In this document: one piece after another, positions 9,001 through 15,000 of the stretch | Position numbering within the stretch: position 1 is the first letter of the stretch | Layout: every line of letters starts with the position of its first letter | Assembly (NCBI GenBank): GCA_000165345.1 | Contig: CM000429.1 | Span: 768,001-832,000, forward strand | Direction: 5' to 3' | Length of the DNA: 64,000 nucleotides | Made by a program: the position numbers

Positions 9001-12000
9001 AATTCCAATTAAAAACTGAATATCTCATACTGCTCAGCTCTACGGTTTTCTATATCTACCCTTATTTCACCCATTCCTCCTTTAATAATTCATCAACTAA
9101 ATCTTGCCCAATATATAACCCTCTTTATATTCTCTCAAAGCACCTACTTTCACATTTTCTTTTCAACTCCTTCAATGGAAACCGACGAAATTACACTTAT
9201 CATTTCTAAGACTTATTGATGTCCACATGTAAAAATATCTTACTTCACTTTTGCATGCATGTGTGCTTGTATATTTAACCCAATAAATTAAACAGATTTG
9301 TACGCAATAAACAATCCAAACTATCAATAATTATTTAATCCCTTAGATGTTCCGAAATAAACAAAGTAATAAGTAGTATTATAGAAGTAGTAATAGTGGC
9401 AGTAGTTGTAGTGATTGTATTGATGTGGTAAGTAATCTTGCATTTTTGAACGCGCATACTTATGTATTATATATAAATAAATACAATACAAAGAAGCTAC
9501 ACGTACTTTTTTACGGGTATAACTGCGATAATTACCTTTTTCTAAATAATTCACCTATATTAATATATTACCACCTTTTTGGTAGAAAAGAAAATAATAC
9601 AGATAAATATCTATCAATCGTTCTTAATATCTCCAACATTAATTATCATTGGTTTTATTATAAGTTCGTTTTACACATTTTTTTTTTTTAATTTTTAATG
9701 TTTGTCCAAACTCCTCAAGTGATTATTTGACTAGTCCGAATTGCCCGCTCAATATCTAATATTATTTTGTCATAAGTGGTTAATACTTCATTTTAAATAA
9801 AAGAAAAATGAGCATTAAATCACACCAGTAGCACACTCCACTCCACCAACAAGAGCAATGTCAACATTTCTCGCAGAATCCAGCCTCTATAATTGTCCAT
9901 TTACATATCTGCAGACTTCTCCACTTTTAAACTTCGACGCCAGTCCAGGGGGAATATTAGAAATAAGTCACAATAAAATGACTTAATGATGAATTTTCAA
10001 GGAAAGGAATGAGTGTGGGTAATGTAGCAAAGAGGAAAGGGGTTGTTTTTTTTTCTAGAAAAATGAAGAAATACGGTACTCAAACACGACAAGATTAATT
10101 TAATAATCTAAACTGGATGTGATATATAGAATGTTTGGAGTGGTGTTTTACCATGGAATTGATATCATTATCTTTTATAATCGTGTTAGTAATTGAACTT
10201 TCTATTTTTTTTCATTGGAATAACTATTTGTATGCGTATCTTAAATATTTTGATCCAATTATGAGAAATAAATGTCCAGGCCGAGTTAACTAAAAGTTAG
10301 AAGTTACAGATCCAGCTCCAAAGTGACCAAAAGGGACCTTTCAAGGACCCTTGTCACAAAAAATTGACTTTAAAGTAATTTTGAATTAATTTACTGGTCG
10401 ATTCTAACCAATATCTCGCGACCATCTATTTCACGATCGTTGAGCTTCTCAACAGCAAGTTGTGCATGGTTAGGATCAGTGAAAACAATTGTAGCAATTC
10501 CTCGTGATCTTCCATCTTCGAAATAAAAGACCTCGCAAGATTCTAAAGGACCAATTTCATTAAAGGCTTTAGCAAGATCCTCTTGAGTAGTTTTCCAAGC
10601 CAAGTTAGTAACAAAGACTTGCTTTCCTTTATTTTCCTCTTTTAGTGGAGGTCTTGGAGCATGAGTCCTTGTTCTCATTCCATAGCCTCTGTTATTCCAT
10701 TTGTTTGATCTTCTACCATATCTACTTGATTCATCTTCACGATCCTCACGCACAAAAATTAGACGATCAAGTAATGTAGTATTATTTAATTCATTGATAG
10801 CTCTTTGAGCTTCCTCCGGAAATGAATACTCAACTACTCCACAACCCCTAGAACGGCCAACTTCATCTTCAAAGACGTCTGCCCGAATAACATTTCCAGC
10901 TTGTCGCATGTGATCCTTAAGATCGTGCCACTTTGCCTTCCATGGAAGATTTCCAACATAAACACGGCAGTTTTTATCAGATACCATCCTCAATATATGT
11001 TCAAGAAGATTTTTGTCAACTTAAGAGGAGAAAAAATAATCAATTAAACTTTAATGTTATTCTACGTCTTTTTTGACCAATACTATAATTTTTCTTTCCT
11101 GTTTTGATTTTATTCTTTAATTTTTTTGAGGAATCTGATCCCCTCTTTTATTTTTCTTAGAATAATTTTAGTATCGTTACTATCTAATTTACTAAAACTT
11201 AAACTAGAAGGCTATTTAATTTGTTTGTATTATTTTACTCTACGTATACCGTTAACTAAAGTATGTAAATAGCAAATAAATAGTATATAATATATTTAAT
11301 TAATAACAAAGCTTTGACAAACTGCCTATTACCAATTATATATAAATGTTATATATACATATATATGTCATTTATAGCAATTCCACTATTTTTATTTAAA
11401 ACTTGAACCAAATATTATTTTATGTGGCATTTCTCCAATGTGCCGCCTGCATACTCATTGGGCGCCATAAAGGTACCGTCGCTATGGCGGGGCCAGCCCT
11501 GTCTACAGGGAATTCATTGAAAATTATATTTTAATTGTATAGTAATATTACATTGTTTACTATTATTTAATTAGCAAATTTGATTCAATTTTTCTTTATT
11601 AGAATGAGAAATTAGTTATTCTGGGAGTTTAAATAGGATCAATTTTGTGTTGAGGGGGGGGGGGGGGGGAAGAAAGGGGTTCATGAGAGGTGACAAAAAA
11701 GGACAAATATGGAGGGAAGGGGGGAATATATGAGATAATGTCAGAAGTGGATTGATTGAGGGGATGTGGGAAGGGGAGACATTTTTCTTTTGGCAAATGT
11801 CGGCATAATAAATATTAGAAAATATGTTCGTTGTGCCGCGCAAGCCAACATCAACTTCCCTTGTCAAAAAATTGTTATCGTTATTTTCCTTTTAACTTTT
11901 ATAACACCATTTCTCGCTACCAACCGCTCAAATATGTAATGACTTGAAAATATAGCTTTTCAAAACTAGTAAGAATTGTGTTTACCAGATACTATCAATC

Positions 12001-15000
12001 TGGATAAAGTTTCATTTATTTCTTATTTTCATGTTGCCTTTCCATCGGACCTCCGACTAGTTTGACTACTATGCGTCATCCGTCTCAGTTATGCATCCTA
12101 CATCCTTGGCTAGCGCGAGCGCTTGCCAACTGGGTTTTATTGAGAAAGTAAGGAACCTATCTCAAACATCGAATCCTGCTCAATTAACCGATCTCCTCTC
12201 TACCCTGCACAAGCCTGCTCTATATCCCCTGATTTTTTCTCCACTCCCCGATACAACCTCTTCCCACCAGCTGCCCTAAAATCGGAGTAACTACTATTAC
12301 TATTCTAATTCTACTTGGAAATTTGCCTCTAACCGTACAAATACTACTAGTTAACTACCAAGCATCTTGCCCTTCTCTAGCTCACCTTGGCGAAGGCTGA
12401 AACAAGCATCTGTGCTTTTTCCCCACGTTTCCACAAGAAACTCCTCTTCTTCTTCCCTAAGTCGTTCTTTTTCCCTTAAATAAAAACCCCAATTAGTCTC
12501 AGACACCGATACTTTTTAAAAAGCTTTTTGGCGCCCAGCCGCCAATACTTTATTAATATTAGCAAGCTTTTTTGGTATTGGGCGGCGGCGTGGCCCGCCT
12601 TTTACAGAAAATGTCATTTTAAAAGAAAAATAGAAAACTAAAAGGTTTGGATTATTTACTTTTTTATCGGAAAGAAGAGCCGAAAAATTTTGGCTAAAAC
12701 TGTTCGTATTGATGAGGGTCTAGTTGCAGGAACTTTATGTTACTTGTCAATTTATTGTAATTTTTTACAACTGAAAACAGGAAACAAACACAGAAATATG
12801 GATCATAAAGCTTACTGAGAGCCTAAACACATTTAAAAAAAGGGAATACAACAGAAACTGATAAGAATCCTTTCTTATATATTTATATACTGTACATATC
12901 ATACGTTTATTTGTTCTAACTATCCATGTAAATATTCCTATCCATATATAAACTTTTGAGTTATTAATTATGGAATTTGTCTCTAAACTTAAAAGTGAGG
13001 GATTCACGATAGAATCCTGGCACTCACTTGCTTTGCACTTATATAACGTAGAAGAACTCGAAAAATGTGAAACTCTTTTGCAAGAATGTATTGAGGAGTA
13101 TGAACTCTTGGATGAAAAGCTCACACAAAATCAAAACCAAAATCAACACTCCGATATATATATCAATCGCCTCGAAAACTCTATTCAAACTATTGGAATG
13201 TTGACTATGCTTGAACTTAATTTAGCTTTGGGATGCTTTGAGACTAACTACAGAAAGTCAGAGTCCATTATTAGAAGAACAGAAGAAAGACTTAAGCAGT
13301 TTATGAAACTTTTTAGCTGTAACTATTCATCTAGTAATAATTTTAAAGCTATTCACAAATACTGGGGATTCCTTTATCTATATAAGAGTGTTATCACAAA
13401 TGAGGTAGATCTTTCCCAGAGAAATACTTTTCTTGACCAAGCTGAGAAGGAATTTACCATTACCCTTGAATCTAATACCAAAGATACCCAAGCTATATCT
13501 GGATTAGCCAATGTTCTTTATCAGAAGATGGCCTTCTCCAGGGCTCTAAGACTATTCTCAACTCTTCTTCTTATACTTGGGACTGAAAAGTGTCCAAACA
13601 CCGTCAGACTTGCTATGGCTTGCTGTAATCTTCGCTTAGGTAATCTTAAAAAGTCTCAAGAATGCTGTAAAAGGGCAATCTATATTTGTATTTTTGGCGC
13701 CAAAACCGATGATGACACTATTAATGCTACTGGTGATGACAAGGAGAAAATGGAAACTTTATTTATAAAAAAGGATGGTAAAGAGGAAGCTCAACTCAAC
13801 AGAGATTTACTTGAGAATGAAACTTTTATTGATTCATTGACACAGTTTGAAAGGCAAACTCTTTCTGACTTACTTTTGTGTTATTCAAAAAGCACTAATT
13901 ACAAGGGTCTTAGCCTCAAGAACACCTTTGAGATTATAGCTAAGATATTCCCAAGTCACCCAGCTCTTGTTTTGTATGCCAGTAATGCTGAGTTTTATTT
14001 GGGTTATACTCCTAATAGCAACTTTGAGAAAGAACTACACAACATTTCAAAAAGATGTTCAAACTTTTATTGTTCTCTTGAGGCTCATTTCCACATTGCT
14101 AAGAGGCTTCATCTCAGAAAAGATATTGCTAATGCTCATTCTCACTATATTATAGTTGTTGATGTGCTTAAAAATTTCTATAATACAGACAAAACTTTAC
14201 TCAATCTTTATTTATCTTGTCTACTTGGTGCTATTAAAACAAGTTGTGGACTTCAGAAATGGGATGTTTCAACACAATATATCCATAAAGCATTTGAATC
14301 TTTGGGAATTAAGGGATCAGTTGACTCTCTAAAAGACTATAACCTCCCTATTGAATATCTTTATGAGTTTTTAATCCCCACAATTTCATTAGTTATCATG
14401 AGTATTGAAGATCCGGCTATGATTCCTACCACAATTTCAATCTTCTCTCAACTAACAATTGAAGAAAGGCTCCTTAATTGTCTGCATTATCTATTTTTCA
14501 TATTGAATAAAATGGATGACATTAATTCAAAACAATGCTATATTATTGTCTTCCTTCTTCAAAAAATTACGACATGTCTTTTATTTAGAGGAAGGAGGAC
14601 AATTCGTCGCAGTGATTATAACTATGAAGTAATTACTACCTTAATTTCCAAATATACAAACTATTCAGCAACTCTCAAACCTATTCCTCTTATTGTAATA
14701 TTATTTTCTTGTCTCAAGTACCTAATAGTTAATTGTAATTCCTTACCTTCACCAAGCGATAGCAAAAGAAATTCAAGTTGTGATAATCCAATGTTGAATT
14801 CAACTCCTTACCTCAGGTATAAGGATTTAGTTAGGGAGAATTTTGGAATTTACTTAAACAATTTAGGAGTATGTATCATGGAGTGCGCGACGTCTTTATC
14901 ACCAGAACACTGTTGTATTGGAAGCAACGAGCATACAATGTTAAATGAATCATTGGAAATCTTTAATCAAAGTAAGGAATGGTTTAAAAATAGTATATTA

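What the first reader, a model, noticed from the sequence alone, without database searches (positions are those of the whole stretch)
11440..12640. GC-rich island (about 45-50% GC) with a G16 homopolymer and palindromic GGCGCC stems inside a 2-kb divergent intergenic region
Between the 2-RRM gene (start 10987, minus strand) and the Ctr9-like gene (start 12970) the composition changes abruptly. The segment 11440-11510 (ccgcctgcatactcattgggcgccataaaggtaccgtcgctatggcggggccagccc) forms a GGCGCCATA...TATGGCGGG hairpin. A G16 run with GGGA-rich flank lies at 11654-11770. 12040-12640 is CpG-rich and ends in an inverted GGCGCC/GCCAATAC repeat. No convincing ORF is present. Candidates are an unannotated structured ncRNA or a long 5' leader. 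A G-tract promoter element that can form a G-quadruplex or sink nucleosomes is another possibility.
Basis: seen in the sequence. Interest (0 to 1): 0.55.

Follow-up and report, generated by a model that had tools for sequence, protein, structure and literature searches.

The report
Cryptosporidium promoter region with E2F sites
The GC-rich patches lie in the long spacer between two back-to-back Cryptosporidium parvum genes and are clusters of the parasite's already-known promoter motifs (E2F sites and a G-box), one of which has stretched into an unstable run of G's; I found no sign of a hidden structured RNA gene, so this is largely ordinary.

Summary
The window is Cryptosporidium parvum chromosome 1. 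The finding sits in the 1,982-bp divergent spacer between cgd1_3530 (CpGBP, a 2-RRM telomere G-strand-binding protein) and a TPR/Ctr9-like gene.

**What is real:**
- The G16 run.
- The abrupt GC jumps.
- Relative CpG richness.
- The absence of any ORF.

**What does not hold up:**
- The two "GGCGCC hairpins" fold no better than shuffled sequence.
- Their arms are not conserved in related species. Only the GC hexamers are.

**What the pieces are:**
- The hexamers match the published C. parvum E2F-like promoter motifs. They are about 10-fold over-represented across the window, almost all in intergenic DNA.
- They form two clusters, one facing each gene. This layout is kept across the genus.
- The G16 is an expanded G-box. 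It reads G7, G13, G16 and G20 in four C. parvum assemblies and G6 in C. hominis.

**What was ruled out or not found:**
- No Rfam match and no consensus RNA structure.
- No telomerase template and no conserved ORF.
- The central 1 kb diverges at about the neutral rate, apart from one 70-bp block.

**Still open:** the central kilobase holds about 40% GC at equilibrium and has a strong inward purine skew. It may be transcribed as promoter-associated non-coding RNA. That could not be tested here.

The parts
11038..11261 (-). Strongly conserved AT-rich block next to the CpGBP (cgd1_3530) start codon. Likely its 5' UTR plus core promoter. It includes a G-box (GAGGGGATC on the gene's sense strand, 11137-11145).
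   Evidence: Identity to C. meleagridis/chipmunk/ubiquitum is 0.95/0.86/0.86, against 0.865/0.70/0.63 at 4-fold sites. The CCCC[ATC]C element at 152-155 nt from the ATG is kept in eight genomes (166-167 nt in C. felis). The mRNA-like contigs L023/L024 begin at window-equivalent 11076-11112.
11442..11491 (.). E2F-like site cluster 1: GCCGCC (11442), GGCGCC (11461), invariant GGTACCG (11472-11478) and GGCGGG (11486).
   Evidence: The hexamers or close variants are kept at 374-501 nt from the CpGBP ATG in parvum, hominis, tyzzeri-like, meleagridis, chipmunk, ubiquitum, L021 and L019, and at 526-689 in felis. The fold is not better than shuffles. The motif family is from Oberstaller 2013, PMC3734150.
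11650..11779 (+). Purine (G/A)-rich tract made of three TTGAGGGG-type units. It holds G-box-like and GAGA-like motifs.
   Evidence: Direct-repeat family D1. GC skew is +0.8 and purine skew +0.4. At least one G[ATG]GGGG sits on the + strand at 646-683 nt from the CpGBP ATG in all nine intestinal-clade genomes examined.
11654..11669 (+). G16 homopolymer: a slippage-expanded G-box core of variable length.
   Evidence: G7 (L007), G13 (L003), G16 (window) and G20 (L004) in C. parvum assemblies. G6 in C. hominis and tyzzeri-like. The aligned stretch is largely deleted in C. meleagridis, which keeps a G6 G-box nearby. It is the least conserved bin of the spacer.
11790..11848 (+). Local hairpin-forming inverted repeat. 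It is lineage-specific and probably incidental.
   Evidence: z = -3.8 on the + strand only and z about -3.1 in the scan. It is identical in parvum/hominis/tyzzeri-like. It is disrupted without compensation in meleagridis, chipmunk and ubiquitum.
12040..12524 (.). Pyrimidine-rich (on +) island with ~44% GC and little CpG depletion, evolving at about the neutral rate. It may be transcribed on the minus strand (inferred only).
   Evidence: GC 0.445 and CpG o/e 0.79. GC skew is about -0.2 to -0.6. Divergence is close to 4-fold sites. W->S and S->W substitutions are balanced at 16 vs 18. No ORF is conserved.
12301..12370 (.). The one conserved block in the central region (...TGCCTCTAACCGTACAAATACTACTAGTTAACTACCAA...). 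It is a linear sequence element, not a folded RNA.
   Evidence: Identity is 0.96/0.90/0.75 to meleagridis/chipmunk/ubiquitum. It is also found in the extra species L021. RNAalifold gives essentially no structure, -1.7 kcal/mol.
12527..12599 (.). E2F-like site cluster 2: TTTGGCGCCC (12527-12536, a perfect match to motif DTTGSCGCCH), GCCGCC (12538), GGCGGCGGC (12581-12589) and CCCGCC (12594).
   Evidence: GGCGCC, GGCGGC and CCCGCC are kept in chipmunk, and the first two in ubiquitum, while the AT-rich arm sequences are not. In those species the T-run sits on the other side of the palindromic core, which suits a protein site and not an RNA stem. The fold is not better than shuffles.
12798..12818 (+). 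Conserved 6-codon upstream ORF candidate (MDHKAY*) in the presumed 5' UTR of the TPR/Ctr9-like gene.
   Evidence: The ATG, frame and an early stop are kept in eight genomes. The context GAAATATGGATCAT is invariant.

Best explanation
The region is an unusually long divergent promoter spacer, not an RNA gene.

**Anatomy (shown):**
- Two clusters of E2F/DP-type sites (cores GGCGCC, GGCGGG, GGCGGC) face the two genes. They lie about 455-500 bp from the CpGBP ATG and about 370-445 bp from the TPR/Ctr9-like ATG.
- Between them lies a purine tract carrying G-box- and GAGA-like motifs.
- The core of that G-box has expanded by replication slippage into a hypervariable G run (G7 to G20) in C. parvum.
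- The GGCGCC core is itself a palindrome, and neighbouring sites lie in opposite orientations. That is why the clusters can be drawn as hairpins.

**Mechanism (inferred):**
- E2F/DP heterodimers bind the GC boxes and open the chromatin for the two flanking mRNAs.
- An ApiAP2 of the G-box-binding type may use the G tract.
- The sequence in between is mostly unconstrained. It is kept GC-rich and strand-skewed by whatever acts on open or transcribed promoter DNA.

The motif identity, over-representation, positional conservation and lack of RNA structure are shown here. Protein binding and transcription start sites are inferred.
For: - **Organism and synteny:** the exact CpGBP protein is found on Cryptosporidium chromosome-1 records, and the gene order is conserved in 14+ genomes.
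- **Motif identity:** the published C. parvum upstream motifs are E2F-like DTTGSCGCCH and TTTGGCGGGAAV, G-box-like KKGRGGGGRR and DTGTGGGG, and a GAGA-like motif (PMC3734150). 12527-12536 is a perfect DTTGSCGCCH match.
- **Over-representation:** GGCGSS occurs 39 times in the window against 3.6 +/- 2.2 expected. Of the 28 distinct sites, 21 are intergenic, with canonical flanks such as ttttGGCGGGaaat.
- **Published chromatin data:** E2F motifs are the dominant motif in ATAC-seq promoter peaks, and more than half of those peaks are annotated as bidirectional (10.1101/2025.01.17.633476).
- **Genus-wide layout:** the two-cluster arrangement is kept in all nine intestinal-clade genomes from parvum to C. 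felis (looser in C. bovis/ryanae). It is reduced to one site about 205-218 bp from each ATG in C. muris and C. andersoni. The surrounding sequence is unalignable.
- **Sites versus stems:** the hexamers are conserved while the 'stem' arms are not.
- **G-box position:** it is conserved in nine of nine intestinal-clade genomes, while the run length varies.
- **No RNA signal:**
- **No coding signal:**
- **Common layout:** other long divergent spacers in the window also carry two separate E2F sites, at 37287/37984 and 59491/59722.
Against: - Cluster 1 lies about 330-380 bp upstream of the likely CpGBP transcript start. Other E2F sites in the window are 118-320 bp from an ATG, so it may drive another transcript instead.
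- Pure spacer DNA should drift to the roughly 25% GC of other non-coding DNA. The central kilobase holds about 40% GC with balanced W->S and S->W changes (32 vs 27) and has little CpG depletion.
- The central region has strong inward-facing purine skews of the kind seen on the sense strand of all 20 CDSs in the window.
- A 70-bp block in the centre is conserved without explanation.
- No binding, chromatin or RNA data for this locus were available.
Confidence: 0.62

Rival explanations
1. The central kilobase (about 11500-12520) is transcribed into one or two fast-evolving non-coding RNAs started at the E2F clusters acting as bidirectional promoters. One would be a + strand RNA through the G tract. 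The other would be a minus-strand RNA of about 0.7 kb from about 12500 to about 11800. This is compatible with the promoter reading and adds a product to it.
For: - Purine excess marks the sense strand of 20/20 CDSs and 16/20 upstream regions in the window.
- The centre shows the same sign inward from each cluster: +0.40 on the + strand at 11600-11800, and +0.26 on the minus strand at 12150-12500.
- GC is held at equilibrium near 40%, and CpG o/e is 0.72-0.88.
- Cluster 1 is far from the CpGBP transcript start.
- The literature reports many bidirectional promoters and promoter-linked lncRNAs in C. parvum.
- There is a conserved 70-bp block 160-220 bp inside cluster 2.
Against: - None of 12 diagnostic 13-mers from the region occurs in the published set of 396 lncRNA sequences. 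That file is truncated as held.
- Divergence is about neutral.
- There is no structure signal.
- No ORF from the region is on record in public assemblies.
- No direct RNA evidence could be obtained.
Confidence: 0.22
2. The region is a long 5' leader, or an alternative distal first exon, of CpGBP or of the TPR/Ctr9-like mRNA.
For: - A conserved mini-uORF at 12798 shows that the TPR gene's 5' UTR is at least 172 nt.
- Minus-strand purine skew over 11800-12500 would also fit a distal CpGBP start near cluster 2.
Against: - Three independent mRNA-like contigs from a related species start 90-125 nt upstream of the CpGBP ATG.
- The minus strand across 11600-11800 is strongly pyrimidine-rich, which is the wrong sign.
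- The E2F clusters would then lie inside the leader.
- The leader sequence would be unconstrained.
Confidence: 0.08
3. The GA-rich G tract is one of the dispersed CENH3-binding (holocentromere) sites recently reported in C. parvum intergenic DNA.
For: - The preprint reports 58 intergenic CENH3-enriched windows typified by GA-rich motifs (10.1101/2025.09.30.679541).
- 11650-11779 is the most purine-skewed, G/A-rich segment of the spacer.
Against: - The authors state that such GA repeats also occur at sites not bound by CENH3.
- The coordinate table (S3 Dataset) is not held.
- The tract is the least conserved part of the spacer, whereas CENH3 windows were reported as conserved.
Confidence: 0.05
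4. The region encodes a structured non-coding RNA such as telomerase RNA, an snRNA/snoRNA or a RUF6-like GC-rich RNA.
For: - GC-rich islands in an AT-rich genome often mark RNA genes.
- One hairpin at 11790-11848 has z = -3.8.
Against: - No Rfam match, even at E up to 10 within the region, and none in seven orthologous loci.
- No 1.5-repeat CCTAAA template in any species' spacer.
- Mean folding z is -0.3/0.0 over 48 tiles per strand.
- The hairpin is broken in meleagridis, chipmunk and ubiquitum.
- Profiles built from each block find nothing in canis-like, felis, bovis, ryanae or muris spacers.
Confidence: 0.03

Closest known systems
E2F-like upstream motifs of Cryptosporidium parvum (motifs 3 and 4 of Oberstaller et al. 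2013; dominant motif of ATAC-seq promoter peaks in Xiao et al. 2025)
   Same: - Same core sequences, including a perfect DTTGSCGCCH match.
- Intergenic location and strong over-representation.
- Often placed between divergent genes.
- Conserved at orthologous positions.
   Different: - There are 8 core hexamers in two clusters about 1 kb apart, where most spacers in this window have one to three sites.
- The clusters lie further from the start codons (370-500 bp) than most others in the window (118-320 bp).
- Binding was not tested.
G-box (5'-G.GGGG-3') bound by ApiAP2 proteins cgd8_810 and cgd2_2990, and the GAGA-like motif
   Same: - Matches KKGRGGGGRR and G[TGA]GGGG.
- Lies upstream of genes.
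- The position is conserved across nine genomes.
   Different: - The core has expanded into a 7-20-nt homopolymer in C. parvum.
- The tract lies about 670 bp from the nearest ATG.
- It reads on the strand opposite to that gene.
Vertebrate CpG-island bidirectional promoters (a functional analogy only)
   Same: A locally GC-rich segment with little CpG depletion in a CpG-depleted genome, carrying E2F sites between divergent genes. Its composition is held at equilibrium.
   Different: - I know of no CpG-methylation system in Cryptosporidium that would explain the contrast (from background knowledge, not tested here).
- The island is only about 40% GC and about 1 kb long.
- It shows a strong strand skew.
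GA-rich CENH3-associated intergenic windows of C. parvum (holocentromere preprint)
   Same: A GA-rich sequence in an intergenic region.
   Different: Occupancy is unknown. The tract is poorly conserved, whereas the reported windows show low diversity.

Membership tests
C. parvum E2F-like promoter motif family | Sequence match to DTTGSCGCCH or TTTGGCGGGAAV | tested here: met
   12527-12536 TTTGGCGCCC is an exact match. Seven further hexamers (GCCGCC, GGCGCC, GGCGGG, GGCGGC, CCCGCC) at 11442-11491 and 12538-12599 match the core, with imperfect flanks.
C. parvum E2F-like promoter motif family | Over-represented and located upstream of genes | tested here: met
   GGCGSS occurs 39 times against 3.6 expected, and no shuffle out of 100 reaches 39. 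GGCGCC is in non-coding DNA 8 of 11 times and GGCGGG 8 of 10 times, where non-coding DNA is 39% of the window.
C. parvum E2F-like promoter motif family | Conserved at the orthologous promoter | tested here: met
   Two clusters are kept in nine intestinal-clade genomes, looser in C. bovis/ryanae, and single sites in C. muris and C. andersoni.
C. parvum E2F-like promoter motif family | Bound by E2F/DP and lying in open chromatin | not testable with these tools
   No ATAC-seq or CUT&RUN tracks were available for this locus.
G-box / ApiAP2 site | Match to G[TGA]GGGG or KKGRGGGGRR, conserved in position | tested here: met
   14 overlapping matches at 11652-11763. At least one lies at 646-683 nt from the ATG in nine genomes.
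G-box / ApiAP2 site | Bound by cgd8_810 or cgd2_2990 | not testable with these tools
   Protein-binding data exist only for the motif in general.
G-quadruplex-forming element | Canonical G3+N1-7 x4 motif, conserved | tested here: not met
   The motif is present in the window only because of G16. It is absent in the G7 C. parvum assembly, C. hominis, tyzzeri-like, C. meleagridis and C. ubiquitum. It is present near the same position in the chipmunk genotype and L019.
Structured non-coding RNA (any Rfam family) | Covariance-model match | tested here: not met
   No hit at gathering score in the window or in seven orthologous loci. There are only chance-level hits (E of 4 or more) in 11000-13000.
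Structured non-coding RNA (any Rfam family) | Folding energy beyond composition, and structure kept by compensatory change | tested here: not met
The tiled scan mean z is about 0. The 11790-11848 hairpin is not retained in three species. The conserved block has no consensus fold.
Telomerase RNA | Template of about 1.5 telomere repeats (CCTAAA)n | tested here: not met
   The spacer has no 8-mer or longer in C. parvum. Only one 8-mer occurs in any species' spacer, in C. felis. The telomere repeat is GGTTTA.
Protein-coding gene or pseudogene | An ORF or peptide similarity conserved between species | tested here: not met
   Every candidate frame has stops in sister species. There is no tblastn similarity in the central region between divergent species.
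CENH3-associated GA-rich window | CENH3 CUT&RUN enrichment | not testable with these tools
   The supplementary coordinates are not held.

The most novel reading that the evidence does not exclude
The kilobase between the two E2F clusters is a maintained, CpG-island-like, strand-skewed domain. It would produce convergent promoter-upstream non-coding RNAs, or act as a nucleosome-free insulator or CENH3 landing pad, between a telomere-binding-protein gene and a Paf1-complex-like gene. A hypermutable G-box homopolymer would tune its activity between C. parvum isolates.
Probability: 0.15. Interest if true: 0.45.

Novelty: new member of a known kind. Interest (0 to 1): 0.22.

Why it matters
The main value is as a clean negative. 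It shows that GC-rich, palindrome-laden patches in Cryptosporidium spacers should first be read as E2F/G-box promoter clusters, not as RNA genes.

Three smaller points may interest people who study gene regulation in this parasite:
- The two-cluster E2F layout is conserved across the genus even though the sequence around it is unalignable.
- A G-box has become a hypervariable homopolymer (G7 to G20). It is a possible isolate marker or expression-tuning site, and a warning for assembly quality.
- A non-coding kilobase holds about 40% GC at equilibrium in a genome whose spacers are about 25% GC. This hints at transcription or chromatin-linked forces that are not yet described for Cryptosporidium.

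Tried and rejected
- **Rfam:** gathering scan on the whole window and on seven orthologous loci, plus a permissive scan of 11000-13000. Only chance hits came back: Six3os1, rimP, mir-31 and osmY at E of 4 or more. tRNA scan: none.
- **Telomerase RNA:** tempting because the neighbour is a telomere-binding protein. No CCTAAA template was found in any species' spacer.
- **Hidden small spliced gene on the minus strand:** suggested by 3-nt indels in a poly-E run and by a 73-aa gene called in C. 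ubiquitum. The frame is broken by stops in C. hominis, tyzzeri-like and other genomes.
- **Degenerate gene relic:** no peptide similarity between divergent species, and GC is not decaying.
- **Deep conservation:** nhmmer profiles of eight sub-blocks found only the gene-proximal blocks in the canis-like genome, and nothing in felis, bovis, ryanae or muris.
- **Published lncRNA catalogue:** 12 diagnostic 13-mers were absent from the held, truncated FASTA. cgd1_3530/3540 were absent from its tables.
- **Transcript evidence through public assemblies:** the two ORFs from the region are not on record.
- **Metagenome scans:** the conserved block 2 found nothing. The conserved 5' UTR 19-mer found only two unrelated AT-rich contigs.
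- **Holocentromere supplementary coordinates:** not held.

Full report
**Where we are.**
- The window is Cryptosporidium parvum chromosome 1.
- The 198-aa 2-RRM protein at 10391-10987 (minus strand) is found with identical sequence on chromosome-scale Cryptosporidium records. It is cgd1_3530, the Gbp1/Gbp2-like telomeric G-strand-binding protein CpGBP.
- The gene starting at 12970 is a 1,500-aa TPR-repeat protein with a charged tail.
- The two genes are divergent and 1,982 bp apart.
- The same gene order is present in 14+ Cryptosporidium genomes fetched here.
- The spacer is 1.9-2.9 kb in intestinal species and only about 860 bp in C. muris and C. andersoni.

**Checking the observation.**
- The G16 is real at 11654-11669. 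It is the only G/C homopolymer of 7 or more, and the only canonical G-quadruplex motif, in the whole 64 kb.
- Its flank is three diverged TTGAGGGG-type units at 11650-11779.
- Composition changes abruptly, from 20% to 50% GC within 100 nt.
- GC over 11440-12640 is 39.7%, lower than the 45-50% stated. The sub-islands reach 63% (11440-11510), 51% (11650-11780) and 43% (12040-12640).
- This is still the most GC-rich non-coding stretch in the window, where non-coding DNA has a median of about 25%.
- CpG is relatively enriched: observed/expected is 0.72-0.88 here against 0.41 window-wide.
- The two proposed hairpins can be drawn. Their folding energies are indistinguishable from dinucleotide shuffles, with z from -0.2 to -1.1 on either strand.
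The best candidate is a minus-strand frame through a poly-E run with 3-nt indels, and it carries stop codons in sister species.

**What the GC boxes are.**
- Oberstaller et al. (PMC3734150) list the over-represented upstream motifs of C. parvum:
  - E2F-like DTTGSCGCCH and TTTGGCGGGAAV;
  - G-box-like KKGRGGGGRR and DTGTGGGG;
  - a GAGA-like purine motif.
- 12527-12536 (TTTGGCGCCC) is a perfect match to the first E2F-like motif.
- Across the window, GGCGSS occurs 39 times against 3.6 +/- 2.2 in shuffles.
- Of the 28 distinct sites, 21 are in spacers. They often have textbook flanks such as ttttGGCGGGaaat or atttGGCGCCaaag.
- A recent ATAC-seq study finds E2F to be the dominant motif in C. parvum promoter peaks. 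More than half of those peaks are annotated as bidirectional.
- The core is a palindrome and adjacent sites face each other, so a cluster of such sites looks like a hairpin.

**Comparative evidence separates sites from stems.**
- In the chipmunk genotype and C. ubiquitum the hexamers are kept, but the AT-rich arm sequences that made the 'inverted GCCAATAC repeat' are not complementary.
- In those species the T-run lies on the other side of the GGCGCC core. That is expected for a protein-binding palindrome and not for an RNA helix.
- The architecture is conserved far beyond alignable sequence. The positions are:

| Genomes | Cluster 1, nt from CpGBP ATG | Cluster 2, nt from TPR gene ATG |
|---|---|---|
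| parvum, hominis, tyzzeri-like, meleagridis, chipmunk, ubiquitum, canis-like L019 | 374-501 | 360-570 |
| Extra species L021 | 435 | contig ends before the TPR gene ATG |
| C. felis | 526-689 | 590-670 |
| C. muris, C. andersoni | one site at 218 | one site at about 205 |

- C. bovis and C. ryanae carry scattered sites rather than two clear clusters.
- Other long divergent spacers in this window also carry two separate sites, at 37287/37984 and 59491/59722. The layout is therefore common, and this is a large example of it.

**The G16.**
- At least one G-box (G[ATG]GGGG) lies on the + strand 646-683 nt from the CpGBP ATG in all nine intestinal-clade genomes examined. The element itself is old.
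- The run length is not stable: G7 in IOWA-ATCC, G13 and G20 in two other C. parvum assemblies, G16 here, and G6 in four C. hominis-type assemblies and the tyzzeri-like genome.
- In C. meleagridis the aligned stretch is largely deleted, and a G6 G-box remains nearby.
- The two assemblies with G13 and G20 also show homopolymer-type noise nearby, so part of the variation may be assembly error.
- It is the least conserved bin of the spacer.
- The canonical G4 motif exists only in the expanded allele, although the chipmunk genotype and L019 have one at about the same place.
- I read it as a slippage-expanded G-box, not a conserved quadruplex element.

**Is there an RNA gene?**
- I found no support for one in any of these tests:
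  - Rfam gives nothing in the window or in seven orthologous loci.
  - The spacer of every species lacks a 1.5-repeat CCTAAA telomerase template.
  - A tiled folding scan gives mean z of -0.3 and 0.0 on the two strands.
- The one local outlier is a hairpin at 11790-11848, with z = -3.8 on the + strand. It is identical in parvum/hominis/tyzzeri-like. It is disrupted without compensation in C. meleagridis, chipmunk and C. ubiquitum.
- Divergence of the central 1,029 bp, compared with 4-fold sites of the flanking genes:

| Comparison with C. parvum | Central 1,029 bp identity | 4-fold site identity |
|---|---|---|
| C. hominis | 0.94 | 0.96 |
| C. meleagridis | 0.87 | 0.865 |
| Chipmunk genotype | 0.68 | 0.70 |
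| C. ubiquitum | 0.56 | 0.63 |

- This is about the neutral rate.
- Profiles of the sub-blocks find nothing in the more distant spacers.
- The exception is a 70-bp block at 12301-12370, with identity 0.96/0.90/0.75. It is also detected in the extra species L021. It has no consensus structure and looks like a linear binding element.
- Twelve diagnostic 13-mers from the region are absent from the published lncRNA FASTA, which is held truncated.

**What remains unexplained.**
- A neutrally evolving spacer should drift to about 25% GC. Polarised substitutions are balanced instead: W->S 32 and S->W 27 in the centre. The roughly 40% GC is therefore being maintained.
- The centre shows strong strand skews that point inward from each E2F cluster:
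  - purine +0.40 on the + strand at 11600-11800;
  - purine +0.26 on the minus strand at 12150-12500.
- In this window the sense strand is purine-rich in 20 of 20 CDSs and in 16 of 20 upstream regions.
- Cluster 1 lies about 330-380 bp upstream of the probable CpGBP transcript start. That start is inferred from three roughly 950-2,250-nt Logan contigs of a related species that begin 90-125 nt before the ATG.
- Together these features leave room for promoter-upstream non-coding transcription into the centre. This would add a product to the promoter reading, not replace it. It needs RNA data that I could not reach.
- A link to the GA-rich CENH3 windows of the holocentromere preprint is possible but untestable here.

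**Verdict.**
- The finding is a real compositional feature, but it has an ordinary explanation. It is an extended divergent promoter spacer built from known C. parvum motif families: two E2F clusters and a G-box/GAGA tract with an unstable homopolymer.
- The structured-ncRNA reading is not supported.
- The promoter-element reading is supported in sequence terms but not biochemically.
- Novelty is low: a new instance of a known kind.
- The residual interest lies in the maintained GC and skew of the central kilobase, and in the hypervariable G run.

Noticed in passing
window 12798-12818: A six-codon upstream ORF (ATGGATCATAAAGCTTACTGA, MDHKAY*) lies 172 nt before the TPR/Ctr9-like start codon. 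Its ATG, frame and early stop are kept in eight Cryptosporidium genomes (MDHKAC*, MDHKVY*, MDHKAH*, MDHRASRA* variants). A 2025 review states that uORFs have not yet been described in Cryptosporidium.
   Followed up: partly
window 11038-11261: The AT-rich sequence just upstream of the CpGBP start codon is far more conserved (0.95/0.86/0.86) than synonymous sites (0.865/0.70/0.63). It contains a conserved G-box on the gene's sense strand. It may be a regulated 5' UTR or core promoter of an RNA/DNA-binding protein, perhaps autoregulatory.
   Followed up: partly
window 46696-46706: TAAACCTAAAC is 1.8 copies of the telomere-repeat complement, so it looks like a telomerase template. It is flanked by T-runs, lies 45 nt upstream of gene 46034-46651(-), and is beside a triple GC-box cluster at 46781-46813. 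By a rough estimate it is about what chance would give in 64 kb of this composition. Cryptosporidium telomerase RNA appears undescribed in the papers searched.
   Followed up: no
window 13691-13705: A perfect palindromic E2F site (TTTTTGGCGCCAAAA) lies inside the TPR/Ctr9-like coding sequence, about 720 nt after the ATG. It could be an internal promoter of the kind discussed for polycistronic or internal transcripts.
   Followed up: no
window 7108-10390: A second very long (3.3 kb), very AT-rich spacer lies between the 3' end of CpGBP and the start of an AP2-domain gene (5437-7107, minus). It has a single GGCGCC at 8072 and T16/A16 runs at 8393 and 8621. It is also long in other intestinal species.
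   Followed up: no
window 53320-53400: CCTAAACCTAAACCT repeats resemble telomere repeats, but they are coding (EPKP/EPEP repeats in the 2,055-aa ORF 47338-53505). This is a trivial match.
   Followed up: yes
whole window: CpG is strongly depleted window-wide (observed/expected 0.41; 0.39-0.40 in long CDSs), while GpC is at expectation (0.99). I know of no CpG-methylation system in this organism (background knowledge, not tested here).
   Followed up: no
L018:7385-10000 and L019:8094-10000: In the ryanae-like and canis-like genomes the orthologous spacer is 46-48% GC, with 100-nt bins up to 60-67%. That is as GC-rich as their coding DNA. It has no conserved ORF and no similarity to the C. bovis or C. 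parvum spacers.
   Followed up: partly
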